Source: an uncultured Candidatus Saccharibacteria bacterium (lineage in GTDB: Bacteria; Patescibacteriota; Minisyncoccia; Phycocordibacterales; UBA918). Taken from it: DNA of 51,583 nucleotides. The notes beneath the pieces are model-generated. The model was not told the DNA's origin and did no database searches. It was given only the letters and a program-made list of their open reading frames with translations. Where the stretch lies: NCBI GenBank assembly GCA_964521645.1, contig CAZFSB010000001.1, forward strand, positions 17,712 through 69,294, in the 5' to 3' direction. Shown piece after piece: positions 8,841-44,337 of the stretch (position 1 is the first letter of the stretch; each line of letters begins with the position of its first letter). The position numbers and the translations under genes were made by a program.

Positions 8841-9668
8841 TTAGTTACCCTGCTGGAGTGCCATCTGCTGCGTGAGCAACTGGATGAGCACGAGAAGGAG
8901 TTCTCGAAGCTGATTCTGGAGTTCAGTTTGGTCGGTGCTTTTACCGTAATCTCGATACTTTTCCATATTTTTATCCTGGAAACGCTCGACCTTTTGTGCC
9001 ATCTTGTCGTTAATTACGTAGTCTTCGTCATCAACACACTTCTTTGCAACACCCCAACCAGCCGCTTGGCTTGTCTGGTCACAAAATTCACTATCATCAC
9101 CGTCTTCGTCATCGTCGTAATCCTCGAAAATACTTTCAGCGAGGTCCTTGGCCTCATCTGCCAATTCTTCGGCCTCTTCGTAATTCTCTGCATCAAATTC
9201 TTCCTCAGCATCAGCGAGGAGAGCCTTTGCCTCTGCCAAAGTCGTTGAAGCTGCTTCTAGGTCATCTTCATCTTCTTCGGCAGCTTCTGCATCCTCAATC
9301 CTTTCTGCTGCGTCTGCGATCTCTTCCTCGGCATCTTTGATAGCGTCAGAAGCGTCCTCCTCAGCATCCTCGTCTTCCTTGTTATCGATCTCTGCGAGGT
9401 CTTCAATCTGACTTGCAGTGAGGTCGATGTCGAAATCTTCCTCCAGATCAACAACGAGCCCATCGAGAGCTTCCTCAAGGTCAGCATCATTGTAGGTGTA
9501 ATCCTCGCTTTCATCACCATACTCCACCTCTACTTCTACTCGGTCTGCATATACCTCAATCTCGATCTCAAGATCGTCGTATGAAGCGTACGCGGTAAAG
9601 GCCATCCCGAACGCTACCGCAAGGGAAGCAGCGAGGATGACTAGTTTATTGGTAACAGTTAATTGCAT
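8841..9668 (-). CDS. hypothetical secreted or anchored, extremely acidic protein
   Basis: N-terminal hydrophobic signal or anchor (KLVILAASLAVAFGMAFTAYA), then a long Asp/Glu-dominated region, then a C-terminal module containing 2 Cys. Confidence 0.65.
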   Translation of the reverse strand: MQLTVTNKLVILAASLAVAFGMAFTAYASYDDLEIEIEVYADRVEVEVEYGDESEDYTYNDADLEEALDGLVVDLEEDFDIDLTASQIEDLAEIDNKEDEDAEEDASDAIKDAEEEIADAAERIEDAEAAEEDEDDLEAASTTLAEAKALLADAEEEFDAENYEEAEELADEAKDLAESIFEDYDDDEDGDDSEFCDQTSQAAGWGVAKKCVDDEDYVINDKMAQKVERFQDKNMEKYRDYGKSTDQTELQNQLRELLLVLIQLLTQQMALQQGN

Positions 9669-9971
9669 ATAAATGAATACTATTTATGTTTCTACTAATG
9701 ATTCGTTCTGCGCCGCAGACGTGGCTCCAGTATACGCCTATTCACCGGACATAAAAAGACCCGAAGGCCTCCGAAAAATGAAAGGGTGACCGACGGGTCT
9801 GGTGTATAGGGTGTGCAAGCAACGCTTGCGGTGAAGAACAAAATGAACTGGAAGTTCTTTCCTTAGTATATACCCTGACTTCTTCCCGACAAGCCAGTTA
9901 TACACACCCAGCCGACCTTATTTCAAAGGCGATTGGCCAAGCCGCGCCAGCTGGCATACAATAGGAAGTAT

Positions 9972-15318: not shown

Positions 15319-15409
15319 GATCAGCTCCTTTTTAATGAACTTCTATAGTCGATCATAGTTTTTTGTCCATGAAGATTTCGTGAAGAAATTTTCAGTAATC
15401 CACAGTATG

Positions 15410-15503
15410 AAAAATGGGTGGCGCGCTCGCCCTAATTTTTAGGGAGGATTTATCTGACCATAAAAATAGAAGTGCCCTTGGGATGCGCGCGCCACCCATT
15501 TTT
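15410..15503 (-). terminator. long-range 17-bp stem with a 60-nt structured loop, flanked by A/T runs (atypical terminator)
   Basis: AAAAATGGGTGGCGCGC (15410-15426) pairs with GCGCGCCACCCATTTTT (15487-15503). The loop contains the hairpin CCCTAA-TTT-TTAGGG. Confidence 0.5.
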
Positions 15504-16478
15504 CTACACCACCTTCACAAATTCCCGATGCGGTGACCCCCGTTTCCACATCACACTTTCGAGATAGTAATGAATGAAACCAAACGTCATTATGAGAGCA
15601 AAAAGCAACTCGGTATTTGAAATAGATTCACGTAAGAATACTCCCAAGAATATTGCGATGAGCGGTACGACAAGAATAAGTGAGAGCGGCAGTAACGGGA
15701 TCGCCTGGTACAAAAAATTTCTCACCAGGTCTTTATTACGATTCATCTCGTGAGTGATGTAGAACAAGAAGGCGGTCACGTCGTGAATGAACCGAGCAAC
15801 AAAGATAGCAAGGAAGAAATAGCCGAACCAAAGCACGGTGTAACTAGTGATCACCATGAGTAACGTCAGCGCAATATACGAAATTCCCCAACGCGAGCTG
15901 GTCGTGCGGGCGAGAAACCCACCACTGATCAAAGCAGCGATCAACGTCGCCACAATGAAAAAGACCAAATACGAAGTATTGATATCTTCTACAAATCTTG
16001 GGAGCATGATCGCGACATACATGACGGCAGTGCTGAGTACCAGACTCCAGGCCCATCGCTCGTGCCACTTGTTTTTTGGTACGCCAAACATGAGCGCTAT
16101 CCCTGTCTGTTGGCGCATGACGTGATACATGGTAACTGCCAAGTACACTGCGACAGCAGTTGTGATGTCGAACCAGAGTAAGCTAAAAAAACCGGTCAGC
16201 ATGAGCGGGATACCAACCATGAGATGGGTTCGATAATGAGCGACGTACTCCTTATCCATGAATCCAACGAAGCTCGCAAAGATATGCGGCATTTCAAAAA
16301 TGAGCAAATACAGCGGGAGAAAAAGTGAGGCTGGACCAAGGGAGGGAAGAAGCCCACGATCATTGAACGTCATGTCCCAAGACCACACGAGAAGCACCAG
16401 TGGCACGATGAGAAAAAGACCAAGTATCCAGGAGCGATGGATAGAGTAAAACGTCTGCTCGACTTTGATGTTATTCAT
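15504..16478 (-). CDS. polytopic membrane protein with conserved His motifs, paralog A
   Basis: About 9 TM segments. Motifs PHIFASF, YHVMRQQTGI, RFIHDVTAF, YITHE, and the C-terminal HYYLESVMWKRGSPHREFVKVV shared with paralog B. Confidence 0.75.
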   Translation of the reverse strand: MNNIKVEQTFYSIHRSWILGLFLIVPLVLLVWSWDMTFNDRGLLPSLGPASLFLPLYLLIFEMPHIFASFVGFMDKEYVAHYRTHLMVGIPLMLTGFFSLLWFDITTAVAVYLAVTMYHVMRQQTGIALMFGVPKNKWHERWAWSLVLSTAVMYVAIMLPRFVEDINTSYLVFFIVATLIAALISGGFLARTTSSRWGISYIALTLLMVITSYTVLWFGYFFLAIFVARFIHDVTAFLFYITHEMNRNKDLVRNFLYQAIPLLPLSLILVVPLIAIFLGVFLRESISNTELLFALIMTFGFIHYYLESVMWKRGSPHREFVKVV

Positions 16479-16484
16479 GTCCTG

Positions 16485-17459
16485 TTACACTACCTTCACA
16501 AACTCCCGATGCGGTGACCCCCGCTTCCACATCACACTTTCAAGGTAGAAATGAGACATGCAGATAAGGATGACGATGCTGTACCCAACGGCCAATTGGT
16601 TGGCAGAGGTCGTAATGAGGTAGGCCAGCGAAATGCCGAGAACCGGGGTGAGTACGATCACGTGCTTCGGGATACGAGAGATCAGCTGGTACAGGTAGTT
16701 ACGGTGGCCGCTTTTGGCTCGGTTGTGGTCGTGCGTGATGTAGAAAGCGAAAGCGGTGATGTCGTGCACAAAACGAAACGCGAGTATCGTGAAGAAAATG
16801 TAGTCAGTGAGAATAAAGAAATAGTTCACGATAAACATCATCGATACAGCAAAGATGTACCAGCGGACTGAAGACGGGGAGGTCCACAGCTTCGCGGCCA
16901 TGGTGAGCAAAGTTAGGATCGCGCCAATGAATAGCACTGGTGATAAGTACGGGAGGAGGTCGTCGGGGAAAGCGTCCGGCCGCAACATGTACACGTACGC
17001 GATACTTCCCATGACAAATGGGGCGAGCGTCCACAGACGATGAATATGACCGGGCTTAGAACCGAGAATAAGTGAGATACCGACCTGCTGTCGCACGCCG
17101 TGCCACATATCATTGATCAGGAAGAATACCAAACCCCAGAGGTAGTCGTACCACAAGAGCAGCGCAGTACCAACAAGGAGCATCGGCAGGTACACGAAAA
17201 GATGTCGACGATAGTACCGCACGTATTCGGTGTCGACGAAACTGAAGAAGCTCGCGATGATGTGCGGTAAGTTGAACAGCAGCAAGAAGAGCGGGAAGAA
17301 GAGTGCGTCAATCCCGACGTACGGTTGAAGAAAATGATCAAAGAGAAACATGTCCGCGAGCACGATCCCTAAGAGAACCGGGATGATGAGATATACCGAC
17401 AACAGTAACTTTCTGGGAATGGTCATCATCGTTTCAGCAGCGGTTATTTTACTTTCCAT
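16485..17459 (-). CDS. polytopic membrane protein with conserved His motifs, paralog B
   Basis: ORF 16485..17555 trimmed to ATG 17459, which overlaps the Xer gene end by 11 nt; ATG 17429 is an alternative. Motifs PHIIASF, WHGVRQQVGI, RFVHDITAF, YITHD, HFYLESVMWKRGSPHREFVKVV. Confidence 0.75.
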   Translation of the reverse strand: MESKITAAETMMTIPRKLLLSVYLIIPVLLGIVLADMFLFDHFLQPYVGIDALFFPLFLLLFNLPHIIASFFSFVDTEYVRYYRRHLFVYLPMLLVGTALLLWYDYLWGLVFFLINDMWHGVRQQVGISLILGSKPGHIHRLWTLAPFVMGSIAYVYMLRPDAFPDDLLPYLSPVLFIGAILTLLTMAAKLWTSPSSVRWYIFAVSMMFIVNYFFILTDYIFFTILAFRFVHDITAFAFYITHDHNRAKSGHRNYLYQLISRIPKHVIVLTPVLGISLAYLITTSANQLAVGYSIVILICMSHFYLESVMWKRGSPHREFVKVV

Positions 17460-18363
17460 GATATTTCTTATGAACTTCTCGTAAATGTTTGTCAGTGACA
17501 TGAGTATACACCTGGGTCGTACCGATGTTGGCGTGCCCCAGGAGTGCCTGCACACTACGGAGGTCGGCCCCGTTTGACAGCAGGTCGGTCGCGAAGCTGT
17601 GACGAATGACGTGCGGGGTCACCTTGCGGGTGATGCCGGCTTTGATCGCGTAGGTCTTAATGAGTCGCTGCACGGCCCGCGGGGAGAGTCGCAGGTCGCC
17701 ACCGTCGTTCATCTTTCGGCCGTAGCGAACGAACATCGCATCATCCATGTCCTTTCGATGCTTCAGGTAGTCCTGCAGGGTGGCACGCGCGGAGTCTGAG
17801 AGAAAGACCACGCGCACTTTGTCACCCTTTCCGCGCACGGAAAATTCGTCACGCGACATATCGACATCATCGATCGACAGTCCGCACAATTCTGAGATAC
17901 GCAGGCCGGTGGAGAAGAGAAGTTCGAGGATCGCTTTGTCCCTCTTTCCCTCGAGCGTCTTCTGGTCGGGTGCACCCATGAGCCGTTTCAGCTCAGCGGC
18001 TGAAATGAGATCGATCGAACGCTCGGGGACTTTCGCCAGCTCGATGCGCTCCGGAGAGAGAGCTTCGATACCGCGCTTGCGGAGGAACTTGAGAAACGCC
18101 CGCAGCGCGATGAGATAGTAGTTCTGCGTGCGGCGCTTCATCGGTTCCATGCGTCCGCCGACTTTCGTACCTGGCTGCCTGTTGAGATGGATACGAAACT
18201 CTCGTACCTGTTCCTCAGTGAGGTCACCGACCTTTTTCACTTTGGCGAACTCGAAAAAACGCTCCAGGTAGCGATCATAGTTCTCAACTGTCTTCACACT
18301 CCTACCCCGCTCGATCTCGAGGTACTCCAGAAATTGCCGTTTCAGTTCCACAAGGCTGTTCAT
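17449..18363 (-). CDS. tyrosine site-specific recombinase, XerC/XerD family
   Basis: ORF trimmed to ATG 18363 (MNSLVELKRQFLEYLEIERGRS...), with TATACT 8 nt upstream. N-terminal SAM-like domain. Catalytic residues in LRISEL, HVIRHSFAT and LGHANIGTTQVYTHV. Confidence 0.9.
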   Translation of the reverse strand: MNSLVELKRQFLEYLEIERGRSVKTVENYDRYLERFFEFAKVKKVGDLTEEQVREFRIHLNRQPGTKVGGRMEPMKRRTQNYYLIALRAFLKFLRKRGIEALSPERIELAKVPERSIDLISAAELKRLMGAPDQKTLEGKRDKAILELLFSTGLRISELCGLSIDDVDMSRDEFSVRGKGDKVRVVFLSDSARATLQDYLKHRKDMDDAMFVRYGRKMNDGGDLRLSPRAVQRLIKTYAIKAGITRKVTPHVIRHSFATDLLSNGADLRSVQALLGHANIGTTQVYTHVTDKHLREVHKKYHGK

Positions 18364-18575
18364 CAGTACCAAGTATAGCAGGGAACGGAACCGTTTTGCG
18401 ACATGACAAAACTTCACAAATGAAGATTCACTCCTTTACCTCACTCAGATTTTTTCGACCGTTCCCGCTTCCAGCGAGCGGGAACTAACGCTTCGCCGGA
18501 CCCTCTTCAAATGAAGAGACCAAGCGCTCCGGCTCCAGAGTTTCGAAAAAAGCTAAGTGAGGTACGGAGTACCAA

Positions 18576-18750
18576 GGTACCACCAAGCTAATTTTACGAT
18601 GCCTTGCGGATTGATGGTTGGTGACAGAGGAGTTGGAGCAGGCAAAAGCCACTGTCTGAGTGAAACGAGTTTGGCTTTTGCCGTCGTGGAAACGACTACC
18701 GTCACCCCAGCAAGTAGCACTCGGCTGAGTAAACTTAGCTTGGTGGTGCC
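18576..18750. ncRNA. unclassified ~175-nt structured element, copy 1 (homolog of 29726-29900)
   Basis: 15-bp closing helix 18576-18590/18736-18750 and three internal helices. Five blocks are identical to the reverse complement of copy 2, while all helices covary. G-U pairs and a GGAA loop favour the + strand. Confidence 0.6.
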
Positions 18751-18780
18751 TGGTGTTTCGCAAAAAGAAGACACAGTAGC

Positions 18781-18808
18781 TTGATTTTTGCCCAATTTAT
18801 GCTATTAT
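18781..18808 (+). promoter_or_regulatory. candidate sigma70-type promoter upstream of rpsO
   Basis: TTGATT (18781-18786), 16-nt spacer, TATTAT (18803-18808). This would give a ~145-nt leader. Confidence 0.3.
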
Positions 18809-18957
18809 CATCGGAACCTTCACCCCAGGAGTACTTCCATTGGCCTACGCCAAGGGGCACGCAGGTTGTTATTATTCCGGACCAGATGGTGCCGTCGATG
18901 TTGGAAACAGCATATGCGCGGATTGGCTCACGATCGGTTTCGTAAACAAATACACAC

Positions 18958-19224
18958 ATGCTATCAAAGCGAGTAAAAGAAAATGAACTGAAGAAGGCGC
19001 AGCGCCACGACCAAGACACTGGTTCGCCAGAAGCACAGGTCGCCCTCTTGACCCGTCAGATCGAGGAGTTGTCCGCTCATTTGCGCAAGCACAAGAAGGA
19101 CTTCCACTCACGACGCGGACTTCTCCAGATGGTAGCGGATCGCCGCACCCACCTGAAGTATCTTCAGAAGAAGAATGCTGATGCCTACGAGGCACTCATC
19201 AAGAAGCTTGACCTCAAGCGATAA
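18958..19224 (+). CDS. rpsO: 30S ribosomal protein S15
   Basis: 88 aa. [40 protein letters not shown] matches the S15 consensus throughout. Confidence 0.95.
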
Positions 19225-19275: not shown

Positions 19276-19321
19276 TTTCGCGGTATAGTGTAACTAAGGT
19301 TACCTCACGATGTTTTGTAAA

Positions 19322-19435
19322 GTCACCTCCCCGGTCGCCACTCAGAGAGTAGCGACTATGCGCGGGAGGGTTTGGCTGGGGCGCGCAAGGAGCGTGCGAT
19401 TCGAGGGGTGACCGGAGAGGTGACAACTGTTTTTC
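19322..19435 (+). ncRNA. candidate structured RNA or long-stem terminator-like element
   Basis: GTCACCTCCCCGGTC (19322-19336) pairs with GACCGGAGAGGTGAC (19410-19424), 14 of 15 positions. It encloses hairpins GTCGC...GCGAC and TGCGCG...CGCGCA. TTTTT lies 5 nt downstream. Confidence 0.4.
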
Positions 19436-22451: not shown

Positions 22452-24200
22452 ATGACAGACAACTCCACACGTCGACCAATTCGCCTGCGTACTTTTGCCT
22501 CTGATCTAGAAGCAAAGCGGGGGACGGGAGCGACCCTCGACCCTTCGATTCAGCCGGTGGTTTCGGCGGCATTGGCAGAGGAGGCTCTAGCAAAGCCGAC
22601 ACCTAGACAGCGTGCCTCCACTCCAGAACCAACCGATATCAACATTACCGCTTCGTCATCGGTAAAAATAAATGAGGACCTTTCCGTTCCATCACCTTCC
22701 ACCACGATCGAGCGACCGGCCGCTCCCGCTGAAGCCTCCACTACAATAAACAAGATCCCCGCCTTTCATGAGCTGAAAAAGAAGGCTAATACGATTCACA
22801 CAGACATCACCGCCGAAACACCAAAGCACAAGAAGAAGAAACCGGCACGAAAAGCGAGTGCGGCTCCCGATCGGCCTAATGTAGGTTACGATTCCGCCAT
22901 CATTACCGACACCAAGAGTGAGCGATTCAAGCTGTTCCCCTCTATCATCGATTCACTTCGCTCCTGGTTTACCCAACTTACCAAGAATCGTGCGCGTAGA
23001 AAGGTCCCGCAGTATAGCGTTCCCGAGACTGAGCGGCGCAAGGGAGTGATCCAGCGTGCCACGTCCAAGACCGGTACGATCTTTAGCGCTGACAGTGAAA
23101 CGTTGCGCGAGCAGATCAGGCGTCGACAACAGCGCGCTGAAGAAACCGACACCGATGATGAGCTAGACACCATTTGGACACCTTTCACCGAAACTGGGTT
23201 CCCTCTTTTGGAGGCGCCTGATGAGCCGGTGCCAACTATTCAGAATGTCACCATTGAGTACAAGCGTCGCCCACAGATCGTCGTACCGACAAACGAAACC
23301 CCAGTCATTCCTCCCGAGGCCATGGCCGCTGACGCTACTAATGAGTTAGAAGTCATTGAACCCCTGTCTGAAGATGAAGCTCGCTGGGCAGCAACTGCTG
23401 CCGAAGATCGTTCTGACCTCCTTGAAGCGGAGATACCCCCAGAACCTTTCGAGCGTACTGTGGTCGCGGAAAGCACCGAGCCCTTCACTCAAACCGTTCC
23501 GTTGGCTAAACGATCAACAACACAAACTCGCTTCCTCTCCCTTTCCGATACCAACACACTGACCATTATCGTTGTGATCGCCATTGTCGCTGTCGTGGTC
23601 ACGGTGTTCGTTGGCTACACGATCTTTTTCAAGGACCGTTCTTCCGAGGCCGCTCTTACCGTATCGCTCACTGAGCCAGTCCTTTCTCCAGCTACCTTAA
23701 ATAACTTGACCCTCACCGCACAATCCTTGAACACTGTTCCCGAGCTGATCAACAGCACCCTTGCTTCTAGTTCCGCTGGATTGGTCGAGCTCGCCCTGGT
23801 CTCTGCAACCGGAGAAGAGATCAGCCCGGCATACCTTTTCGAGATCCTTCGTTTTCAAACGATGCCCGGCTTGCGCCAGGCTCTCACGAGCGTACGTTTC
23901 GCTTCGGTCAATGGCTCCGACCCGATCATTGTCCTTAGTTTCACTGACACCGACACGGTGCGTGGGGGATTGCTTGCTTGGGAAAATACCATCACTGCCG
24001 ACTTGATAGACCTGTATGACCTTCCGGTCCTTCCTGCTTCTGCGTTTACTGATGAAACCATTTCCGGAGTCGACACACGCATCCTTCGCCATGAGAATAA
24101 GACCGTACTGATGTACGGTATCGTAGGGGAGAACATCGCTCTCATTACGACCAACTTTGCAGATTTTGCACAAGTGATTGACCTACTCGGTACCAAGTAG
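22452..24200 (+). CDS. hypothetical single-pass membrane protein with a long Pro/Thr/Glu-rich disordered N-terminal half
   Basis: TM segment LTIIVVIAIVAVVVTVFVGYTIFF in mid-protein. N-terminal IRLRTFASDLEA motif. No family recognised. Confidence 0.65.
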   Translation: MTDNSTRRPIRLRTFASDLEAKRGTGATLDPSIQPVVSAALAEEALAKPTPRQRASTPEPTDINITASSSVKINEDLSVPSPSTTIERPAAPAEASTTINKIPAFHELKKKANTIHTDITAETPKHKKKKPARKASAAPDRPNVGYDSAIITDTKSERFKLFPSIIDSLRSWFTQLTKNRARRKVPQYSVPETERRKGVIQRATSKTGTIFSADSETLREQIRRRQQRAEETDTDDELDTIWTPFTETGFPLLEAPDEPVPTIQNVTIEYKRRPQIVVPTNETPVIPPEAMAADATNELEVIEPLSEDEARWAATAAEDRSDLLEAEIPPEPFERTVVAESTEPFTQTVPLAKRSTTQTRFLSLSDTNTLTIIVVIAIVAVVVTVFVGYTIFFKDRSSEAALTVSLTEPVLSPATLNNLTLTAQSLNTVPELINSTLASSSAGLVELALVSATGEEISPAYLFEILRFQTMPGLRQALTSVRFASVNGSDPIIVLSFTDTDTVRGGLLAWENTITADLIDLYDLPVLPASAFTDETISGVDTRILRHENKTVLMYGIVGENIALITTNFADFAQVIDLLGTK

Positions 24201-24592: not shown

Positions 24593-26107
24593 ATGTCCAT
24601 TGCTCGTGTATACACCGTTCAACCGGAAGTGCTTCGTGGTACGGTCGTGACCATTGAAGCCGACATCTCTCGCGGTCTCCATGCTTTTTCGGTCGTTGGT
24701 CTCGCTAGTAAGGCCGTCGATGAAGCAAAGGATAGGGTAGGGAGTGCGATCAAACATTCCGGCTACCCCTCGCCGAAAACAAAGAATCAAAAGGTTGTCG
24801 TTTCACTGTCTCCGGCCGACCTTAAGAAGGAGGGCCCGCTGTTCGATCTTCCCATCGCGATCGCCTACCTGGAGGCAGCGGGCGAGATCGTCACTGATGG
24901 AATACAGCGGGCGTACATTGGCGAACTGGGGCTCGACGGCACACTACGACCGGTGCGCGGGGTCCTGAATTCAGTGGCCGCTGCTAAGGAGGCGGGTTTC
25001 GGTGAGATCATTGTACCGTCTGCTAATGCCAGTGAGGCCGGTCTGGTCGATGGTATCGTGGTGCGGCCTGCTCTCACATTGCGGGAGGTCATTGAGCACA
25101 TTGCGCCGCCAGAATCCTTCCCCTTTTCTCTTCCTGTCCAACCAGCAACCGAGATCGAGGGAGGTTGGTACGAGAGCAGTGTGTCGCTCGAGGATATTAA
25201 GGGGCAGGAGAGTGCGAAGCGGGGGCTCATCATCGCGGCGGCAGGTCGCCACAATGTCATTTTGGTCGGGCCGCCAGGCACCGGCAAAACCATGCTTGCG
25301 CGTGCCCTACGCTCGCTCCTGCCGCCGCTCTCTCGCGAGGAGGCACTGGCGGTAACCGCGATCCATTCGCTGATCTCCGGCGATCACTCCATCAGCACCC
25401 GACCACCTTTCCGTAGTCCTCACCACACCGCGAGCCACACGAGCTTGGTTGGAGGCGGGGCACACCCGAAGCCTGGGGAGGTGACCTTGGCACACCACGG
25501 CGTACTTTTCATGGACGAGTTTCCAGAATTTGAAAGGCGTTCACTCGATGCGCTGCGCCAACCACTCGAAGATCGGGTGGTCTCCATTTCACGAGTACAG
25601 GGGAGTGCGGACTTTCCCGCTGATTTTATTCTGATAGCTGCACTCAATCCCTACCGCGGAAGCGAAGACGGCACGACCGACCTGGCACGCGCGATGACCG
25701 AAACGTATAAAAATAAGATATCTGGACCGATCCTCGATCGTATCGACCTCTGGCTTGAGGTACCACATGTACCCTACGAAACTCTCACTACCTTGAACAA
25801 AGGTTCGGGTGAGACCGAACGGGCACGCGAGCAGATCCTCTCCGCTCGCGAGCTGCAGGCAAACCGTTTTAGCAACGTTACTACCAACACCAATTCCGGC
25901 ATGGCGGCTCGCGATATTGAAGCTCTCATCGACCTGAGTACCGAAGTGAAAGACCTTCTCAAGGTGTCCAGCGCAAAACTGAATCTCTCGCCACGGAGTT
26001 ACCACCGCCTCATCAAGGTGGCGAGAACGATCGCTGACCTCGCCGGGAAGGAGCACATTGAAACGCCCCATGTGCTGGAAGCGCTCCAGTACCGGGTGAG
26101 TCTATAA
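24593..26107 (+). CDS. comM: YifB/ComM-family Mg-chelatase-like AAA+ ATPase
   Basis: N-terminal Lon-like domain, Walker A GPPGTGKTMLA, Walker B VLFMDEFPEF, and a C-terminal ChlI-like region. Confidence 0.92.
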   Translation: MSIARVYTVQPEVLRGTVVTIEADISRGLHAFSVVGLASKAVDEAKDRVGSAIKHSGYPSPKTKNQKVVVSLSPADLKKEGPLFDLPIAIAYLEAAGEIVTDGIQRAYIGELGLDGTLRPVRGVLNSVAAAKEAGFGEIIVPSANASEAGLVDGIVVRPALTLREVIEHIAPPESFPFSLPVQPATEIEGGWYESSVSLEDIKGQESAKRGLIIAAAGRHNVILVGPPGTGKTMLARALRSLLPPLSREEALAVTAIHSLISGDHSISTRPPFRSPHHTASHTSLVGGGAHPKPGEVTLAHHGVLFMDEFPEFERRSLDALRQPLEDRVVSISRVQGSADFPADFILIAALNPYRGSEDGTTDLARAMTETYKNKISGPILDRIDLWLEVPHVPYETLTTLNKGSGETERAREQILSARELQANRFSNVTTNTNSGMAARDIEALIDLSTEVKDLLKVSSAKLNLSPRSYHRLIKVARTIADLAGKEHIETPHVLEALQYRVSL

Positions 26108-26109
26108 TG

Positions 26110-26301
26110 AAAAAGGCCGGCCCAGCGGGGCAAGAAGCGTAAAAGAAAACCATCCCTGCGGATGGTTTTCTAGCTTTTTGAGACGGAGCCATGTTTTTAA
26201 TTCCTTTCCTAGAATTAAAAACAGGCGAGTCCGGGGAGGAAGCGCTTAGTATTATTTCTGGGAAGCAGAAATTATACTTAGCGACTTGACCCGGCCTTTT
26301 T
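26110..26301. other. 192-nt convergent spacer folding as an 11-bp closing stem around three near-perfect hairpins
   Basis: AAAAAGGCCGG (26110-26120) pairs with CCGGCCTTTTT (26291-26301). H1 26145-26170 (11 bp, followed by a T-rich tract, probable comM terminator). H2 26193-26222 (11 bp). H3 26248-26278 (13 bp with 1 mismatch). Confidence 0.5.
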
Positions 26302-26314
26302 CATTTTCATCTAT

Positions 26315-29684: not shown

Positions 29685-29725
29685 CTTTTTCGCAAAATAC
29701 CTAAAAAGTTTCTTTTTTAGGAATT

Positions 29726-29900
29726 AAATAACCAAACCTCTCCGTAACTCAGCCGAGTGCTACGCTGTGGGGTAGTTACACTCGCCTTCACGACGAGAAT
29801 TGCAAAACTCGTTTCACTCAGACAGTTGCAATTCTCTGTTACGTCTCGTTAACTACCAACCACCTCTTCGCAAGGCATCGTTATGGCGAGGTTTGGTTTT
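29726..29900. ncRNA. unclassified ~175-nt structured element, copy 2 (inverted relative to copy 1)
   Basis: Closing helix AACCAAACCTC (29730-29740)/GAGGTTTGGTT (29888-29898). Hairpin GAGAATTGCAA/TTGCAATTCTC (29795-29836) has a 20-nt loop that is the exact reverse complement of 18652-18671. Four further blocks are shared. Confidence 0.6.
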
Positions 29901-29954
29901 AAGCTTTCTCGTGATCCAGTTGCGCTATTCTGCTTTTTCTCGTACCGTACTGAC

Positions 29955-30868: not shown

Positions 30869-31759
30869 ATGCAGGGTCAGATCAACCCAAAGATAATTGG
30901 TGCAACCATTATTGGTTTTGCGCTTGTGGCTAGTGCTTTTACAGTGAGCAGTTTGCAGAGCGAGCGCACCATCCCTCAGCCGGCAGCAGTGGCTCTCGGT
31001 AGTCAACCACGTGCGCCAATCGCCGTCGTTGACAACGACAACAATGGTATCGAAGACTGGCGTGATGATTTCGTGACCACTGAGCCGGTCGTTCTTGATC
31101 AAGCCTCCTCTACCTACACCTTACCCACTACGCTGACCGGCAAGACCAGCATTGGTCTTCTGGAAAACTACGTTCGTTCCAAAAACTATGGTCCGTTCGG
31201 CAGTTCTGAAGAAGAGATAATCACCAACACCGTCAATTATCTCGCAAAAGAGACAGAGATCAAATTCTACAATACCCCCGATATCACGATCATGGAAACT
31301 TGGGACGACCAAGATATTCTCAATTACGCCAACGTTGTCGCCTCAACGATCTACAAACACAACGTGGCTGATACTGAAGGTGAGTTGGCCGTCCTCTATG
31401 ATATTCTTTCTACAAACAACTCTGCACGACTAGGGGAACTAACAGCCCTTTCTGAGATGTATAAGAACTATCGAGATGATACCCTACTGATCCCCGTTCC
31501 AGCTTTTCTGGTCAAAGAACACCTTGATCTCATCAACACCTACCACTCTTTACACGAGGACATTAAGGCGATGTTGCTCATATTTGATGACCCCGCTGTC
31601 ACCTTGTTACGCCTGAAACGTTACGAGGATGACACGACTGGCCTTGGTTACGCCCTTCAGAATATATACTTCGCTCTCGAGCCATACGCTTATTTGGTCA
31701 CCTCGGTTGAGGAGCCGGCCACCCTGTTCGCCATCTTCAGTCCTGATTTTAATAATTAA
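30869..31759 (+). CDS. hypothetical N-terminally anchored protein, first gene of the T4SS-like cluster
   Basis: N-terminal TM (IIGATIIGFALVASAFTV). TATACT lies 8 nt upstream of the ATG. No family recognised. Confidence 0.65.
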   Translation: MQGQINPKIIGATIIGFALVASAFTVSSLQSERTIPQPAAVALGSQPRAPIAVVDNDNNGIEDWRDDFVTTEPVVLDQASSTYTLPTTLTGKTSIGLLENYVRSKNYGPFGSSEEEIITNTVNYLAKETEIKFYNTPDITIMETWDDQDILNYANVVASTIYKHNVADTEGELAVLYDILSTNNSARLGELTALSEMYKNYRDDTLLIPVPAFLVKEHLDLINTYHSLHEDIKAMLLIFDDPAVTLLRLKRYEDDTTGLGYALQNIYFALEPYAYLVTSVEEPATLFAIFSPDFNN

Positions 31760-31769
31760 TTTATCATCT

Positions 31770-32885
31770 ATGGATACCTTTTTTACCTACCTTAAGAAAA
31801 GCCTCGTCGCCACAGTTTTTGTGATGTTTGCTTTGGTCGCCACCTACACCCCACAGGACTGGAATAAAGTGGAGGTGGCATATGCTGGTGGGGCGGGAGG
31901 TGGTGCCCTGGAGATAACACAACAGATACGTTGGGCCTTTGAAAAAGTCAACAACCTGGCAATAAAGATCTCAACCGGCATCTCTGCTTTTGCGACCAAC
32001 AGCCTTTGGATCAAGGAGAACTTTCTTGATGGTATCGCTTGGTACGCTGCCAAATTCATCATATCTCAAATAACGCAGAGTTTAATCAGTTGGATAAACT
32101 CGGGCTTTAAGGGTAGTCCGATGTTCATTCAAGACCTCGAGGCCTTCCTGCGCAACGCGGCCGATCAGGCGGTCGGCGAATATATCGATGAACTTGGTGG
32201 CCCGCTTTCCTTCCTTTGCGATCCGTTCAAGCTTGATATCCAAGTAGCCATCGCGATGCAGTACTACAAACAAGATCGCACCTCCCAACCAGCGCCAACC
32301 TGTACTTTGACCAACATCATTGGAAACATTGAAGATTATACTTCGGGAACCCTCGGAAGCTTTGAGCAAGGAGGTTGGGATAACTGGTTGAACATCGTCG
32401 CCCAACCGAGCGTATACACTCCATACGGCGCCTTGCTAGCAGCGCAGAGCGGGGCTGACATACGTGTACTCTCCACCATGGGAGAGGAGACGACCAAATC
32501 ACAGTGGACCAGCGGTTTCCTTTCGCAGCAGATCTGTCAGATGATATCAAGTGGAGGTACTACCAAGGAAAACTGTTTTATCACCACTCCAGGCAAGGCC
32601 GTTCAGGAAGCACTTGGTTTCAATCTTGACTCCGGTCGGGAGACCCTCGTCGCTGCCGATGAATTCAACGAACTGATTGGCTCACTCTTTAGCCAACTGG
32701 CCAATAAGGCACTTGGGGGTGCCGCCGGCTTACTGGGAATCTCTGGTGGCACTGGTTATACTGAGTACGACCCTTCTGGCACTACTTACCTCGACTCCAC
32801 CGTTCTAGATCAAATGGACCTATATATAGAATCGCAAGAACCGGAACCAGAACCGGAACCAGAACCGGAACCAGCAATGCCATAA
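31770..32885 (+). CDS. hypothetical N-terminally anchored or secreted protein with a C-terminal (Glu-Pro)7 repeat
   Basis: ORF 31629 trimmed to ATG 31770 (MDTFFTYLKKSLVATVFVMFALVA...), 10 nt after the upstream stop. Confidence 0.65.
   Translation: MDTFFTYLKKSLVATVFVMFALVATYTPQDWNKVEVAYAGGAGGGALEITQQIRWAFEKVNNLAIKISTGISAFATNSLWIKENFLDGIAWYAAKFIISQITQSLISWINSGFKGSPMFIQDLEAFLRNAADQAVGEYIDELGGPLSFLCDPFKLDIQVAIAMQYYKQDRTSQPAPTCTLTNIIGNIEDYTSGTLGSFEQGGWDNWLNIVAQPSVYTPYGALLAAQSGADIRVLSTMGEETTKSQWTSGFLSQQICQMISSGGTTKENCFITTPGKAVQEALGFNLDSGRETLVAADEFNELIGSLFSQLANKALGGAAGLLGISGGTGYTEYDPSGTTYLDSTVLDQMDLYIESQEPEPEPEPEPEPAMP
32838..32873 (+). repeat. 3 x 12-nt perfect tandem repeat (GAACCGGAACCA) encoding EPEP units
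   Basis: Read directly from the sequence. Lies at the 3' end of the 31770..32885 CDS. Confidence 0.9.
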
Positions 32886-32893
32886 CCATCACT

Positions 32894-35143
32894 ATGACCC
32901 TTCGCTCTTCGCACATTCTTACCATCATCCTACTAGCCACACTACTCCTTACTGTGCCGTTTTTAGTGGAGGCGGCGGCGACTAAAGCTGGGCCTCCGAC
33001 GGCGTTTCAGAACGTACTCTGGTCAATCACAGTCTCTGTTTTCGGTCTTTTTGTCTGGCTGTCGAGCGCGATAATCGATATTGGGATCAATACCTACGTT
33101 ATCGGTTTTGGTGATAAGTTCATAACCACCGGCGTTGGCTCAGCAGTTGACAGCCTCTGGACCACCGTGCGTGATATCTTTAACCTTACCTTTATTTTCG
33201 GACTGGTATTTATCGGGTTCAAGATGATCCTTAATAGCGACGATTCAAATACCAAGCGTTGGCTCATCAATCTCATTCTGGCTGCGCTCCTGGTCAACTT
33301 CAGCCTCTTCATCACCAAGGCGGTGGTCGACTTCACCAACATTGCTGCTACCCAGATCGCTCAAGGATTCCCTGTGGATGGTGACAAGGTTTCCCTATCC
33401 AAGGGGTATATGAATATGCTTGGAATACAAAGTTTACTGGGGGGCAACGTCGTACCTGGTACAGAACAAAATGCCTACGGCTTCATCTTTGGCACCATGA
33501 TCCTCTTCGTTGTCATGACTTTCGTCTTCGCGGCGGGAGGTATACTGCTCTTGATCCGCTACGTGGTGCTCTGCTTATACATGATCTTATCACCGCTCAT
33601 GTTCTTAGGCTGGGTCTTTCCGCAACTGCAAAGCATCTCTAACCAATACTGGCAAGGATTTTTGAGTCGTGCTTTCTTTGCCCCGGTCTTTCTACTTCTA
33701 GTTTATTTTTCTCTCTTTGTACTCTCTGCGCTATATAAAGGGTTCGCCACCACTGCTACTGAAAATGAATCCTTGAAAAACGCGTTCGCAACAGCTCAAC
33801 CCGGGCAATTGCCTTCCGTTGAAGCAGCCTTCATCCCCTTCATTCTGAGCGCTATCTTCCTCATCGCTTCCATCGTGGTGGCCAACAAAATGGGCGCTGA
33901 TGGCGCTAGCACCGCCCTTCGGATGGGCAAAAGCGCTAGCAGCTGGGCACAGACCAGAGCCAAGAGAGCTGGAATCGGAACTACTAAATTTGCAGCATCT
34001 CAAACTGGTGGTCGCTTAGCCCGTCGCGGGTCATACGCACTTGGTAATACGCTAAATCAGCAAATTAGCCGCATGCAGAATTCAAACAATCGACTTGTCC
34101 GTGCCGCTGCCAGAAGTACTGCGGTTGACTCCACCGTGCGTGGCGGTGCAGCTAAGATGACAAATGCGAAGTTCGGATTGGCTCGAACGAGAGAACAAGA
34201 ACAAGCTGAAAGTAACCGGATCAATCGTAATGCGGATAGACGAGCTGATGAAGAGCGAACCAGGCAAGCCGAGCAAAATACGAGACTCACTCCCGCTAGC
34301 ACAGATGCTGAAATTACAGCTCATCAGAACGCTCGCCAGGCACATGCACAAGAAGTTAGTCAAATGTCCAATGAGCAGGTTGTTGAAATGGCAAGGCAAG
34401 ACAGGGCGTATGTTCAATCTCCAGAGTTTGCCTCGCTTCTTTCCGTGGCTCAGACAACTGCACTAAGAGAATCTGGAATCTACGATAACGCTGAAATGAC
34501 CCAACTTGAACAAAACAGAACTGACGGAGCGCTTCAGGAAGTCAACCAGGTTCTTACTAATTCAAATGCCTCGGTAGAAAACCTCAATACAGCTATCGAC
34601 AACCTCAATAGGACTGTCAGTACGATGTCAGATCAGCAGATTAGTGACGTGATAGCACGTGACACGAGAGCAGGAAGACCTACGGATCCTGCTTTTGCGG
34701 CCAGCATGACTCAGGCACAGTTTGATACATACATGAACTCATCAGCCTCTCAAGCAGAAAAGAATGCTCTAAGGACAGCACGAGGCGACGGACAACAACG
34801 TATTGCACACTATGGTAGCCTCGTCGATCCTACTTCAGCAGGGGCGACTTCACCTGGAGCAACCGATGCCGACTTCCAAGACAGAAATCGCCGTCGATTA
34901 TTCCGTAACGCTCAGCAGGCTGGTGCCTTGCCTGCGGCGGTACTTGCAGATCCTGAAGTTCGTGAGTTCTTAACACCTCGCATCATTGAAGAATTCTTGA
35001 ACAATAACCCTAATCCTGGTGACATAACAAGTGTAAGAAACAATGTTGAAGATTACATAACTGACCCACTCACACCAAACGCAGTAACCAGCACCTGGCA
35101 AACCTGGATGAATACAACGGTTCTAGGAAGGCGTTTCCAATAA
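32894..35143 (+). CDS. VirB6/TrbL-like polytopic membrane protein with a long hydrophilic C-terminal half
   Basis: Signal-like N-terminus, then about 7 TM helices in the first ~340 aa, then a Gln/Asn/Arg/Ala-rich soluble region. Its size and position beside VirB3/VirB4-like genes resemble the VirB6-type subunits of Gram-positive conjugation systems. Confidence 0.6.
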   Translation: MTLRSSHILTIILLATLLLTVPFLVEAAATKAGPPTAFQNVLWSITVSVFGLFVWLSSAIIDIGINTYVIGFGDKFITTGVGSAVDSLWTTVRDIFNLTFIFGLVFIGFKMILNSDDSNTKRWLINLILAALLVNFSLFITKAVVDFTNIAATQIAQGFPVDGDKVSLSKGYMNMLGIQSLLGGNVVPGTEQNAYGFIFGTMILFVVMTFVFAAGGILLLIRYVVLCLYMILSPLMFLGWVFPQLQSISNQYWQGFLSRAFFAPVFLLLVYFSLFVLSALYKGFATTATENESLKNAFATAQPGQLPSVEAAFIPFILSAIFLIASIVVANKMGADGASTALRMGKSASSWAQTRAKRAGIGTTKFAASQTGGRLARRGSYALGNTLNQQISRMQNSNNRLVRAAARSTAVDSTVRGGAAKMTNAKFGLARTREQEQAESNRINRNADRRADEERTRQAEQNTRLTPASTDAEITAHQNARQAHAQEVSQMSNEQVVEMARQDRAYVQSPEFASLLSVAQTTALRESGIYDNAEMTQLEQNRTDGALQEVNQVLTNSNASVENLNTAIDNLNRTVSTMSDQQISDVIARDTRAGRPTDPAFAASMTQAQFDTYMNSSASQAEKNALRTARGDGQQRIAHYGSLVDPTSAGATSPGATDADFQDRNRRRLFRNAQQAGALPAAVLADPEVREFLTPRIIEEFLNNNPNPGDITSVRNNVEDYITDPLTPNAVTSTWQTWMNTTVLGRRFQ

Positions 35144-35150
35144 AAATTCT

Positions 35151-35645
35151 ATGATTCAAATTGACACAAACTCATTCCTGAAGGCTTTCAATGCTGCTGA
35201 TGAAAACAAGAAGGAATTGATGCGTAATTCACGAATCAATGATTGCATACTCGGATCATCAATCAAGATGAATATAGATACCGATTCAAAATCCTTGATA
35301 TTGTTGTTTGGTTATAAAATATTAGGTTTGATTGACAGTCAGACTTTGTACAGGGAGCTAAAAGTGCTCGGAATTAATGATGCTGAAGCATTCGCAACGA
35401 CGGTGCTTTCGTGTGTAGAAGTCACTAACACTCCCTCCTCCCCACATACAATTCACAATGAGGAGACAAGTGTAGAAAATAAATCAAAGATACAGACAAC
35501 TACCCCCCACATCCGCACCATGGCAGACGACATGGCAAAGTCACAAGCAGCCGGCGAGCATGTCTACACCTCCACCCAAGAGGCAATCCTCAAAGAAGGT
35601 TGGTCGACACCAAAGCCAGCGCAAAATCCACCCCAGTCTTCGTAA
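35151..35645 (+). CDS. hypothetical protein (164 aa)
   Basis: ORF starts 7 nt after the upstream stop. Contains an IRTMADDMAKS motif. No family recognised. Confidence 0.55.
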   Translation: MIQIDTNSFLKAFNAADENKKELMRNSRINDCILGSSIKMNIDTDSKSLILLFGYKILGLIDSQTLYRELKVLGINDAEAFATTVLSCVEVTNTPSSPHTIHNEETSVENKSKIQTTTPHIRTMADDMAKSQAAGEHVYTSTQEAILKEGWSTPKPAQNPPQSS

Positions 35646-35710
35646 CTCATTGGGGATAGACGTCGACAAATGATTCGTATCAGCTTCACCACCATGTATA
35701 ATGGTGGTGT

Positions 35711-36133: not shown

Positions 36134-36134
36134 T

Positions 36135-36776: not shown

Positions 36777-36791
36777 TAATCTGCTATTTAT

Positions 36792-38585: not shown

Positions 38586-38608
38586 GGGTGTAGTATACTG
38601 ATACGTAT

Positions 38609-39655: not shown

Positions 39656-39781
39656 AGGATCGGTGTTTTTATAATTGACTGACCGGAAATCTCCACAGTT
39701 TTTCCCAACACTATACACAGCCCATCCCCGTTTTTCCCACAGGTTCTTGAAAAAGACCCTCTCGAGAGCTCTCCATCTGAT

Positions 39782-40762: not shown

Positions 40763-40767
40763 TCCTT

Positions 40768-41967: not shown

Positions 41968-41985
41968 GTTAGTTAACCCACCTTT

Positions 41986-43501: not shown

Positions 43502-43513
43502 AATGGACCTATT

Positions 43514-44308: not shown

Positions 44309-44337
44309 GCAAATCACCGTACGATCTTCGTTTGATT

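What the first reader, a model, noticed from the sequence alone, without database searches (positions are those of the whole stretch)
18576..18750. Unclassified ~175-nt structured element, copy 1: identical loops and junctions, all four helices covary with a second copy
On the + strand, 18576-18750 folds into a closed multi-helix structure. P1 is GGTACCACCAAGCTA (18576-18590) paired with TAGCTTGGTGGTGCC (18736-18750), 15 bp including one G-U. P2 is GGTGAC (18620-18625)/GTCACC (18701-18706). P3 is GGCAAAAGCCA (18641-18651)/TGGCTTTTGCC (18672-18682), capped by a 20-nt loop. P4 is GTCGT-GGAA-ACGAC (18683-18696). The reverse complement of 29726-29900 has the same architecture in the same order. 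Five collinear blocks are identical in both copies: ACGATGCCTTGCG (18596-18608 = rc 29869-29881); GGTTGGT (18616-18622 = rc 29855-29861, with a 7-nt spacer after the first block in both); the whole P3 loop CTGTCTGAGTGAAACGAGTT (18652-18671 = rc 29806-29825); GTCGTG (18683-18688 = rc 29789-29794); and GTAGCACTCGGCTGAGT (18714-18730 = rc 29747-29763). The helices have different sequences yet still pair in copy 2: P1 AACCAAACCTC/GAGGTTTGGTT, P2 GGTAGTTA/TAACTACC, P3 GAGAATTGCAA/TTGCAATTCTC, P4 TCGT-GAAG-GCGA. Conserved unpaired blocks combined with compensatory helix changes indicate a selected RNA (or ssDNA) fold rather than a drifting duplicate or a terminator. I cannot match it to any RNA family I know.
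Basis: seen in the sequence. Interest (0 to 1): 0.85.

Follow-up and report, generated by a model that had tools for sequence, protein, structure and literature searches.

The report
New rod-shaped RNA family in Kaiserbacteria
The two ~175-base elements are real copies of a previously undescribed structured RNA gene family, found so far only in three closely related tiny-genome (CPR, Kaiserbacteria-like) bacteria; the fold is strongly supported but the function is unknown.

Summary
Copy 1 (+ 18575-18751) and copy 2 (- 29726-29900) share five identical blocks, while every helix differs yet still pairs.

Four more full copies and one 3' fragment turned up in two related Candidatus Kaiserbacteria-like genomes. 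On six sequences, 94% of cells pair (34-48% in slid controls), and 38 of 63 pairs carry compensatory changes. Unpaired core columns are 32/48 invariant; the 20-bp closing stem is 1/38.

No Rfam 15 family matches at E<=10. There was no true hit in GTDB genomes, JGI metagenome contigs, IMG/VR, phages or plasmids, and none in 80 syntenic loci of relatives.

The fold is better drawn as one long irregular rod than as a four-helix junction. The 'unpaired' blocks pair with each other through tandem G.A loops. The P4 hairpin competes with a covarying long-range helix.

There are at least three paralog types. They sit in either orientation in two variable intergenic hot spots (xer-rpsO and uvrD-rsmA), beside a second unrelated structured element, X.

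My best guess is a trans-acting, protein-binding RNA cut out of longer transcripts through its closing stem. Rivals are a 6S-like RNA, a selfish mobile element and an ssDNA site. Function is inferred, not shown.

The parts
18575..18751 (+). Copy 1 of the element (paralog type C), whole
   Evidence: Inverted arms 18575-18597 / 18729-18751. Model R1 hit 18578-18748, 180 bits. MFE z = -7.9.
18578..18597 (+). P1 5' arm of the closing stem. It pairs with 18729-18748. The sequence is hypervariable but always paired.
   Evidence: A2 columns 9-28 with 163-182. 17 of the 24 pairs of helix 1 have compensatory changes. 1 of 38 P1 columns is invariant.
18729..18748 (+). P1 3' arm
   Evidence: As for the 5' arm.
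18596..18608 (+). Conserved block B1 (ACGATGCCTTGCG). G18598-A18599 lie opposite G18727-A18728 (tandem G.A). TGCC 18600-18603 pairs with GGCT 18723-18726. TGC 18605-18607 pairs with GCA 18717-18719.
   Evidence: Identical in both window copies. Pairs 31-34/157-160 and 36-38/151-153, with G-C to A-U and U.U to G-C changes in relatives.
18714..18730 (+). Conserved block B5 (GTAGCACTCGGCTGAGT), the partner strand of B1. CTC 18720-18722 is an invariant 3-nt bulge.
18611..18629 (+). They pair with 18696-18713.
   Evidence: A2 columns 42-60 with 130-147. Within helix 3, 12 of 19 pairs have compensatory changes.
18630..18640 (+). Central 5' strand (GAGTTGGAGCA). It is either unpaired opposite the P4 hairpin, or paired with 18686-18693 through GA/GA and GNA/GNA loops.
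   Evidence: Pairs 63-127, 64-126 (UA x3, CG x2) and 65-125 (UA x3, CG x3) covary. The rod form is 2.4-8.9 kcal/mol more stable in all six copies.
18683..18696 (+). It is an alternative to the long-range helix.
   Evidence: 5 pairs, 96.7% paired, only one-sided changes.
18641..18682 (+). P3 (18641-18651 / 18672-18682) capped by the conserved 20-nt apical segment 18652-18671
   Evidence: 11 pairs, 100% paired, 7 with compensatory changes. The apical block is unique to the two copies.
29726..29900 (-). Copy 2 of the element (paralog type B), whole
   Evidence: Model R1 hit 29729-29899, 174.3 bits. MFE z = -5.2. It is 84-89% identical in the core to L002 + and L001 + copies.
29694..29721 (-). A+U-rich hairpin (CCTAAAAAAG-AAA-CTTTTTAGG) followed by TATTTT, directly 3' of copy 2. 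It may be a terminator for the minus-strand transcript.
   Evidence: Read. Not called by the consensus scan, which needs at least 3 G-C pairs. This is inference only.
18437..18564 (+). Element X, an unrelated structured element directly upstream of copy 1 on the same strand. It may be co-transcribed with copy 1.
   Evidence: Arms 18437-18458 / 18543-18564. z = -5.8. Homologs in L007, L009 and L012. 19 of 52 pairs compensatory.

Best explanation
These are genes of a lineage-specific family of ~175-nt structured non-coding RNAs in a subclade of Candidatus Kaiserbacteria-like (CPR) bacteria. There are at least three paralog types (A, B, C).

Shown:
- The named strand folds into one long, irregular rod.
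- The rod is closed by a ~20-bp stem (P1). Its sequence drifts freely but it always pairs.
- Between the covarying helices lie nearly invariant non-canonical modules: two GA/GA loops, two GNA/GNA loops, a U/CUC bulge and a 20-nt apical segment.

Inferred:
- The RNA acts in trans.
- The invariant GA-rich loops and the apex are docking sites for one or more proteins, so the RNA is an RNP scaffold or a protein decoy.
- The long sequence-free closing stem is a processing and protection stem. An RNase III-type cleavage there would release the RNA from longer intergenic transcripts. This would explain why copies lack consistent promoters and terminators of their own, and why they sit in co-oriented clusters with element X, which has the same kind of closing stem.
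- The central region may switch between a hairpin (P4) and a long-range helix.
For: Structure:
- On six copies from three genomes, 93.9% of cells pair, against 34-46% when partners are slid by 1-3 columns.
- 38 of 63 pairs have changes on both sides, against 7-12 in the slid controls. 0 of 500 shuffles reach any measure.

Conservation is inverted relative to neutral drift:
- Invariant columns are 32/48 in the unpaired core, 36/88 in the paired core and 1/38 in P1.
- P1 identity between copies is 23-60%, even between positional orthologs.

Strand:
- G.U pairs number 12 against 4 A.C.
- All conserved loops are purine (G, A) rich on this strand.
- A hairpin with a U-run follows copy 2 on the minus strand only.

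Not cis-regulatory:
- Neighbours and orientation differ between genomes. B is on the minus strand in the window and on the plus strand in L001/L002. C lies upstream of rpsO in the window and next to rsmA in L002.

Not coding:
- Copies differ by 1-2-nt indels, and the changes are compensatory rather than synonymous.

Processing idea:
- The 5' ends of A and B are only ~14 nt apart, and copy A of L002 ends 6 nt from the uvrD stop, so there is no room for private signals.
- X also has a hypervariable long closing stem. It is co-oriented with C in the window, and W and Z follow X in the same gaps in L007 and L009.

Novelty:
- No Rfam family matches and no literature was found.
Against: - No expression data exist. 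No promoter could be identified for any copy.
- No candidate partner protein is encoded next to the copies. The neighbours are housekeeping genes: Xer recombinase, S15, an NYN-domain protein, PNPase, UvrD and RsmA.
- G.U pairs are few (3% of pairs), so the strand call is suggestive rather than decisive.
- The family is absent from the same gaps in equally close relatives (L007, L010, L012, L013, L015, L097). It moves and decays: there is a fragment in L002. That behaviour fits an accessory or selfish element as well as it fits a cellular RNP RNA.
- Only three genomes contribute, so many 'events' are shared by descent.
Confidence: 0.45

Rival explanations
1. A 6S-like RNA. The rod would mimic open promoter DNA and sequester RNA polymerase holoenzyme. 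The central region (18630-18640 opposite 18683-18695) would be the bubble, P3 plus the apex one duplex arm, and P1-P2 the other. The hairpin / long-range-helix alternative would be the release switch.
For: - The size (~175 nt) fits, as does the rod shape with periodic small internal loops and a highly conserved central region on both strands.
- Two mutually exclusive central structures are both compatible with the alignment.
- From general knowledge: 6S paralogs exist in some bacteria (Bacillus 6S-1 and 6S-2), and 6S is hard to find by sequence.
Against: - Rfam 6S (RF00013) does not reach even E<=10 on any copy.
- The supposed bubble strands pair, with covariation (64-126, 65-125). The paired rod is the more stable form in all six copies.
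- Up to three paralogs sit in one gap. The family is absent at the syntenic loci of equally close relatives and includes a decayed copy. That is unlike a housekeeping 6S gene.
Confidence: 0.15
2. A selfish or mobile structured element. It would be a non-autonomous element whose RNA or single-strand fold is needed for its own propagation, and which hops or is recombined between intergenic hot spots.
For: - Presence/absence: L012 has X followed directly by the rpsO promoter, while the window has copy 1 inserted exactly between them.
- The same gap holds A(-) B(+) in L001/L002 but B(-) alone in the window, with the uvrD-side flank homologous.
- A 5'-truncated copy exists in L002.
- The two gaps also take up an IS (rve) and accessory genes in other genomes.
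Against: - The termini (P1 arms) are not conserved between copies (1 of 38 invariant columns), so there is no common end for a transposase or recombinase to recognise.
- No target-site duplications flank the copies.
- No reverse transcriptase, transposase or homing endonuclease is nearby. The adjacent tyrosine recombinase is a syntenic Xer-type housekeeping gene.
- Only 2-3 copies were seen per genome region.
- No copy was found in IMG/VR, phages or plasmids.
Confidence: 0.15
3. A single-stranded DNA structure, such as a recombination, priming or uptake site that folds during replication or transformation, rather than an RNA.
For: - No promoter or terminator is consistently present.
- G.U(T) pairs are rare, 12 of 353 pairs.
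- A Xer-type recombinase gene lies next to copy 1, and the window is near dnaA/dnaN.
Against: - No conserved core site sits at the base of the stem, unlike attC or dif-type sites.
- The Xer gene is there whether or not the element is.
- The conserved modules (tandem sheared-G.A-type loops, GNA/GNA loops, tetraloop-like caps) are typical RNA building blocks. This last point rests on general knowledge.
Confidence: 0.05
4. A cis-acting leader or regulator of the neighbouring genes (rpsO for copy 1, rsmA or uvrD for copy 2).
For: Copy 1 lies upstream of rpsO on the same strand. Copies in L001/L002 lie just upstream of rsmA.
Against: - The conserved rpsO promoter (18781-18808) lies downstream of copy 1, and the rpsO leader is conserved in relatives that lack the element.
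- Copy 2 is antisense to both neighbours.
- The same paralog type has different neighbours and orientations in different genomes.
Confidence: 0.03

Closest known systems
6S RNA (SsrS, Rfam RF00013)
   Same: About 175-190 nt. A long irregular rod closed by the paired 5' and 3' ends. A conserved central region, alternative central structures, and sometimes several paralogs.
   Different: There is no model match. The central strands pair with covariation instead of forming a large open bubble. The invariant loops are tandem G.A type. The distribution is patchy and hot-spot bound, and the family includes a pseudogene.
Box C/D sRNA and kink-turn modules (including the C/D-like motifs of TIGR and IS110 guide RNAs, PMC12045711)
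   Same: The B1/B5 module reads CGAUG opposite CUGA(G). That gives G.A, A.G, U.U and then G-C, the same non-canonical stack as a C/D box pair. A second CUGA...CGAG pair occurs at the apex, in the C, D', C', D order.
   Different: There is no 3-nt bulge, so by definition it is not a kink-turn. The C box is not RUGAUGA. The segments between the 'boxes' are base-paired helices, not free guides. No Nop, fibrillarin, L7Ae or Tas gene was seen in the window.
Orphan lineage-specific structured sRNAs (for example raiA, and the many 'phylum-1' motifs in Rfam)
   Same: A stand-alone intergenic element with strong covariation, invariant loops, unknown function and narrow taxonomic range.
   Different: No sequence or structure match to any of the 4227 Rfam families. 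It is much narrower (three genomes) and multi-paralog.
Palindromic intergenic repeats and MITEs (Rickettsia RPE, Neisseria Correia, ERIC)
   Same: About 100-200 bp. Rod-like when folded, intergenic, found in either orientation, with presence/absence between relatives.
   Different: Those families keep their sequence, especially the ends, and do not show compensatory helix changes around invariant loops. Here the ends are the least conserved part.
RNase III processing stems flanking rRNAs and some sRNAs
   Same: A stem of 20 bp or more that joins the 5' and 3' flanks, is free to vary in sequence and is kept paired.
   Different: This is only an analogy for P1. Cleavage was not tested.

Membership tests
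Any Rfam 15 family | Covariance-model score at or above the family's gathering score | tested here: not met
   Whole window at gathering: only tRNA-Leu. Both copies at E<=10: nothing for copy 1, and a meaningless 13-bit lncRNA hit for copy 2. Relatives L002, L007 and L009 at E<=1: nothing on the elements.
6S RNA | Match to RF00013 | tested here: not met
   No hit at E<=10.
6S RNA | Large single-stranded central bubble between two long helical arms | tested here: inconclusive
   A bubble exists only in the P4-hairpin form. The alternative paired form covaries and is more stable.
6S RNA | Binds RNA polymerase holoenzyme and templates product RNA | not testable with these tools
   Needs biochemistry.
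Box C/D sRNA / kink-turn | C box RUGAUGA and D box CUGA | tested here: inconclusive
   CUGA is present and invariant in five of six copies (UCGA in the two A copies... i.e. GGUCGAG). The C-like box is CGAUG, CGAAG, CGAGA or CAAGG, never RUGAUGA.
Box C/D sRNA / kink-turn | 3-nt bulge 5' of the tandem G.A pairs (the kink) | tested here: not met
   C28-G163 is invariant and stacks directly on the G.A pairs. The loop is symmetric.
Box C/D sRNA / TIGR / IS110 guide RNAs | Adjacent Nop-domain, fibrillarin, Tas or DEDD recombinase gene | tested here: not met
   Pfam scans of 30 window proteins (the flanking genes included) show none. Five unknown proteins remain unassigned.
MITE / palindromic repeat | Conserved terminal inverted repeats shared by copies | tested here: not met
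   P1 arms: 1 of 38 invariant columns, 23-60% identity.
MITE / palindromic repeat | Target-site duplication | tested here: not met
   Flanks of the six copies show none.
MITE / palindromic repeat | Many dispersed copies per genome | not testable with these tools
   Only 20-50 kb per genome could be read. 2-3 copies were seen, all in two gaps.
Integron attC site | Conserved R''/R' core sites (RYYYAAC ... GTTRRRY) at the base of the stem, and an adjacent integron integrase with cassettes | tested here: not met
   The stem base is not conserved. The recombinase is Xer-type: XerA equivalog 252 bits, above its cut-off, while the integron model is far below its cut-off. It is syntenic in relatives without the element.
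Retron msr/msd or other RT-associated ncRNA | Reverse transcriptase gene next to the RNA | tested here: not met
   No RT domain in any neighbouring protein.
Bacterial Y RNA | Ro (TROVE) gene nearby and a match to the Y RNA / YrlA models | tested here: not met
   No Rfam hit. The 582-aa unknown protein after PNPase is a low-complexity membrane-anchored protein with no TROVE match.
tRNA / tmRNA | ARAGORN detection | tested here: not met
   Only tRNA-Leu at 1307-1391.

The most novel reading that the evidence does not exclude
The elements, together with element X and its companions W, Y and Z, are a new CPR-specific class of accessory RNP RNAs. They would be made as polycistronic clusters, cut out through sequence-free closing stems, and recognised through C/D-box-like tandem-G.A modules. 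That would make them a bacterial counterpart of K-turn/Nop-type RNPs, or a new kind of self-propagating structured RNA that shuttles between two genomic hot spots.
Probability: 0.12. Interest if true: 0.85.

Novelty: new variant of a known kind. Interest (0 to 1): 0.6.

Why it matters
CPR/Patescibacteria have tiny genomes and make up a large share of bacterial diversity, yet almost nothing is known about their non-coding RNAs. I found no literature on this element.

This is a 175-nt RNA with about 60 base pairs, most of them covarying, and invariant GA-rich loops. It is kept in two or three paralogs in a ~1-Mb genome. That is costly, so it should do something important for these cells or for an element living in them.

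It also shows that such RNAs can evolve so fast that sequence searches lose them beyond about 75-80% protein identity. Structured RNAs in CPR genomes may therefore be badly undercounted.

The two gaps (xer-rpsO and uvrD-rsmA) look like hot spots for several such families and would be a good place to look for more.

Tried and rejected
Searches that found nothing:
- Rfam, four searches.
- A gapped DNA pattern built from the invariant blocks:
  - GTDB genomes gave two hits, both coding-sequence chance matches.
  - JGI metagenome contigs gave 0 hits.
  - IMG/VR gave 0 hits.
- blastn against phages and plasmids.
- Model R1 found no true member in the syntenic loci of 8 more relatives, nor in 80 metagenome loci around RsmA homologs. 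The one weak exception is element Z in L009 (22 bits), discussed in the full report.

Ideas rejected:
- P1 arms as guides or spacers: 20-mers of both window copies have no exact match in IMG/VR. The idea has no support.
- 'Phage integrase' next to copy 1 as a sign of a mobile island: rejected. It is a Xer-type recombinase, syntenic in relatives.
- Ro/Y-RNA idea, prompted by the nearby PNPase: rejected. There is no TROVE protein.
- Coding potential of the overlapping ORFs (18557-18784 and others): rejected because of indels and compensatory changes.
- rpsO leader: rejected, because the rpsO promoter lies downstream of the element.
- Short resemblances to 5S, 23S and 16S rRNA strings, the SRP GGAA hairpin and the hairpin ribozyme. 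I noticed these by eye and treated them as chance, since no model supports them.

Literature searches found nothing relevant.

Full report
**1. The observation**

The pairwise alignment (A1) shows the five identical blocks and the differing helices.

The 20-nt and 17-nt blocks occur only in these two places in the 51.6-kb window, even with three mismatches allowed. Chance expectation is 0.00 and 0.15 matches.

Each copy folds far better than its shuffles: z = -7.9 for copy 1 and z = -5.2 for copy 2. The closing stem of copy 1 is found independently as a 23-nt inverted repeat.

**2. Organism and context**

RsmA and PNPase homologs place the window in a Candidatus Kaiserbacteria-like CPR bacterium. 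The best hits outside the window's own genome are 79% (RsmA) and 89% (PNPase) identical. Named hits are Kaiserbacteria and Nomurabacteria MAGs.

The window is ordinary chromosome. It carries YidC, DnaA and DnaN at 42.8-47.2 kb, plus ClpB-like, PBP and TyrRS genes.

Copy 1 lies between a tyrosine recombinase gene (17449-18417, minus strand) and an unannotated S15 gene (rpsO, 18958-19224, plus strand). After rpsO come an NYN-domain gene and pnp.

The recombinase is Xer-type. It sits in the same place in relatives whether or not they carry the element, so it does not mark a mobile island.

Copy 2 lies between the end of uvrD/pcrA (29684) and rsmA. Homologs put the true rsmA start at 29955. The 289-aa database gene call (P0001, as long as the ORF that starts at 29883) would begin inside the element.

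**3. Relatives**

I fetched syntenic loci through RsmA and PNPase homologs. Two other genomes carry the element in the uvrD-rsmA gap:

| Genome | Copies |
|---|---|
| L001 | minus 9587-9759; plus 9774-9945 |
| L002 (same as L003 and L011) | minus 9490-9661; plus 9677-9849; a 3' fragment at plus 9881-9950 |

By sequence there are three paralog types:
- Type A: the minus-strand copies of L001 and L002.
- Type B: window copy 2 and the plus-strand copies.
- Type C: window copy 1 and the L002 fragment.

Equally close relatives have other things, or nothing, in the same gaps (L007, L009, L010, L012, L013/14, L015/16, L097).

Model R1, built from the six copies, scores them at 172-187 bits. It finds no other member in 292 kb of syntenic loci, in 393 kb around RsmA homologs from metagenomes, or in L097.

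One weak hit remains: element Z in L009 at 9736-9897, 22 bits. It is strand-specific and shares only the middle section of the fold, so it may be a distant relative.

Pattern scans of GTDB genomes, JGI contigs and IMG/VR, and blastn of phages and plasmids, gave no true hit. The family is either very narrow or evolves too fast to be followed by sequence.

**4. Structure**

RNAalifold on the six copies predicts 63 pairs, 38 of them with compensatory changes.

Counting on the fixed structure gives 93.9% of cells paired, against 34-46% when partners are slid by 1-3 columns. There are 38 pairs with double changes against 7-12 in the slid controls. None of 500 shuffles reaches any measure.

Conservation is the reverse of neutral drift:

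| Region | Invariant columns |
|---|---|
| Unpaired core | 32 of 48 |
| Paired core | 36 of 88 |
| Closing stem (P1) | 1 of 38 |

P1 arms are 23-60% identical between copies, even between positional orthologs.

The fold is one long rod. From the base to the tip it reads:
1. P1, 20 bp.
2. GA/GA loop.
3. GCC/GGC.
4. U/CUC bulge.
5. UGC/GCA.
6. GNA/GNA loop.
7. Two 3-bp helices with bulges.
8. P2, 10 bp.
9. The central region.
10. P3, 11 bp.
11. A structured 20-nt apex.

In the A copies, GCC/GGC becomes ACC/GGU and the U.U opposition becomes G-C.

The central region has two compatible forms:
- A long-range helix joining 18632-18634 to 18691-18693 and 18638-18639 to 18686-18687, through GA/GA and GNA/GNA loops. 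Pairs 64-126 and 65-125 covary. This form is 2.4-8.9 kcal/mol more stable in all six copies.

A switch between the two forms is possible but not shown.

**5. Which strand, and RNA or DNA**

G.U pairs outnumber A.C oppositions 12 to 4. All conserved loops are purine-rich on the named strand. A hairpin followed by a U-run comes after copy 2 on the minus strand only.

This favours a transcript of the named strand, but G.U pairs are few and no expression data exist.

**6. Genomic behaviour**

No promoter or terminator is shared by the copies. In L001 and L002 the 5' ends of A and B are ~14 nt apart, and copy A of L002 ends 6 nt from the uvrD stop codon.

Copy 1 is a clean presence/absence difference. 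L012 has element X followed directly by the conserved rpsO promoter, while the window has copy 1 between them.

Window copy 2 occupies the uvrD-side position that type A holds in L001 and L002, but it is type B in sequence.

The same two gaps take up an IS and accessory genes in other genomes. The family therefore shows birth, death and shuffling inside two hot spots.

**7. Element X and companions**

Directly upstream of copy 1, on the same strand, lies a second, unrelated structured element, X (18437-18564). Homologs occur in L007, L009 and L012, and 19 of 52 pairs are compensatory. Its long closing stem is also hypervariable.

X is followed by other rod-like elements in L007 (W) and L009 (Y, Z). 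Co-oriented clusters of RNAs, each closed by a sequence-free stem, suggest a common precursor and stem-directed processing. This is inference.

**8. What it is**

*Shown:* a selected single-strand fold that belongs to no described family.

*Best explanation (0.45):* a trans-acting, protein-binding RNA, acting as an RNP scaffold or decoy. Its invariant GA-type loops and apex would be the recognition surface. P1 would be a processing and protection stem.

*Rivals:*
- A 6S-like RNA (0.15). It fits the size, the rod shape and the alternative central folds. It does not fit the paired, covarying 'bubble', the missing model match or the patchy multi-paralog distribution.
- A selfish or mobile structured element (0.15). 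It fits the hot-spot behaviour. It does not fit the unconserved ends, the missing target duplications or the missing enzyme gene.
- An ssDNA site (0.05).
- A cis-regulator (0.03).

The remainder is for functions not thought of here.

**9. Comparison with the known**

The B1/B5 module (CGAUG opposite CUGAG: G.A, A.G, U.U, G-C) copies the non-canonical stack of a box C/D pair. A second CUGA...CGAG pair sits at the apex.

However, the 3-nt bulge that defines a kink-turn is absent, the segments between the 'boxes' are helices, and no Nop, L7Ae or Tas gene is nearby (PMC12045711 read).

It is not a member of 6S, C/D, Y RNA, retron, attC or MITE families by the tests listed in the membership table.

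**10. Verdict**

This is a real and well-supported new structured RNA family from a poorly explored branch of bacteria. Its function is unknown. The interest is moderate to high for RNA biologists, limited by the narrow distribution and the lack of any expression or partner evidence.

Noticed in passing
window 18437-18564 (+); L007 8971-9108; L009 9422-9559; L012 8357-8491: Element X is a second, unrelated ~130-nt structured element with a hypervariable 22-bp closing stem. Conserved strings include CTAACGCTTCGC and GAGTTTCGRAA. 19 of 52 pairs are compensatory in four genomes. It has no Rfam match. It also moves between the xer-rpsO and uvrD-rsmA gaps.
   Followed up: partly
window 18958-19224 (+), promoter-like 18781-18808, leader 18809-18957: A small ORF encodes ribosomal protein S15 (rpsO). 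Its CTTGATTTTT...TGCTATTAT promoter and ~150-nt leader are conserved in L011, L012, L013 and L097, with a variable inserted hairpin. It may be an S15 autoregulatory leader.
   Followed up: partly
window 19320-19430 (+): A rod-like structured stretch lies between rpsO and the NYN/pnp genes (z = -5.0). It is positionally conserved in L011 and L012. It could be an RNase III-type processing or regulatory hairpin of the pnp operon. No Rfam match.
   Followed up: partly
window 26106-26305: A ~200-nt multi-hairpin structure in the comM-lysM/M23 gap is closed by a perfect 15-bp stem (z = -8.2). No similar sequence in any fetched relative.
   Followed up: partly
window 15409-15504: A 27-nt inverted repeat (85% complementary, 42 nt apart) lies in the gap upstream of the 324-aa unknown gene. 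Part of this gap is conserved in L012.
   Followed up: partly
window 29883-29954: The database gene call for RsmA (P0001) is 289 aa, the length of the ORF that starts at 29883, inside copy 2. Homologs are 263-274 aa and align from the ATG at 29955, so the long call is probably an annotation artefact.
   Followed up: yes
L002 9881-9950 (+) (same as L003 2184-2253 and L011 19619-19688): A 5'-truncated copy of the element, running from P4 to the P1 3' arm. It is most similar to window copy 1 and is a decayed third paralog.
   Followed up: yes
L009 9604-9692 and 9736-9897; L007 9160-9265: Further rod-like elements (Y, Z, W) sit in the uvrD-rsmA gap of relatives that lack the family. Z shares the middle section of the fold (CCUYGCGGA...AUG...AGGAGC / GACUA). 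W has CGAUG and GUAGCAC strings.
   Followed up: partly
L011 7472-8419: An rve-family transposase (IS) is inserted between the xer gene and rpsO in the L002 genome. L013/L014 and L097 have a 130-aa ORF there instead. This gap is a general insertion hot spot.
   Followed up: no
window 43502-44331: An 830-nt gap between yidC (minus strand) and dnaA (plus strand) is probably the replication origin region. It was not examined.
   Followed up: no
window 30869-42732: Downstream of rsmA lies a conserved cluster of mostly unannotated genes with TrbL, PrgI, TraC-like, TraG P-loop and T4SS-pilin hits in the window or in relatives. It is a type IV secretion or conjugation-like apparatus, syntenic across the clade.
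   Followed up: no
window 22452-24200: A 582-aa protein directly after pnp has no Pfam hit. It has a long low-complexity N-terminal part, one hydrophobic helix and a C-terminal domain. It is conserved in position in all relatives.
   Followed up: no
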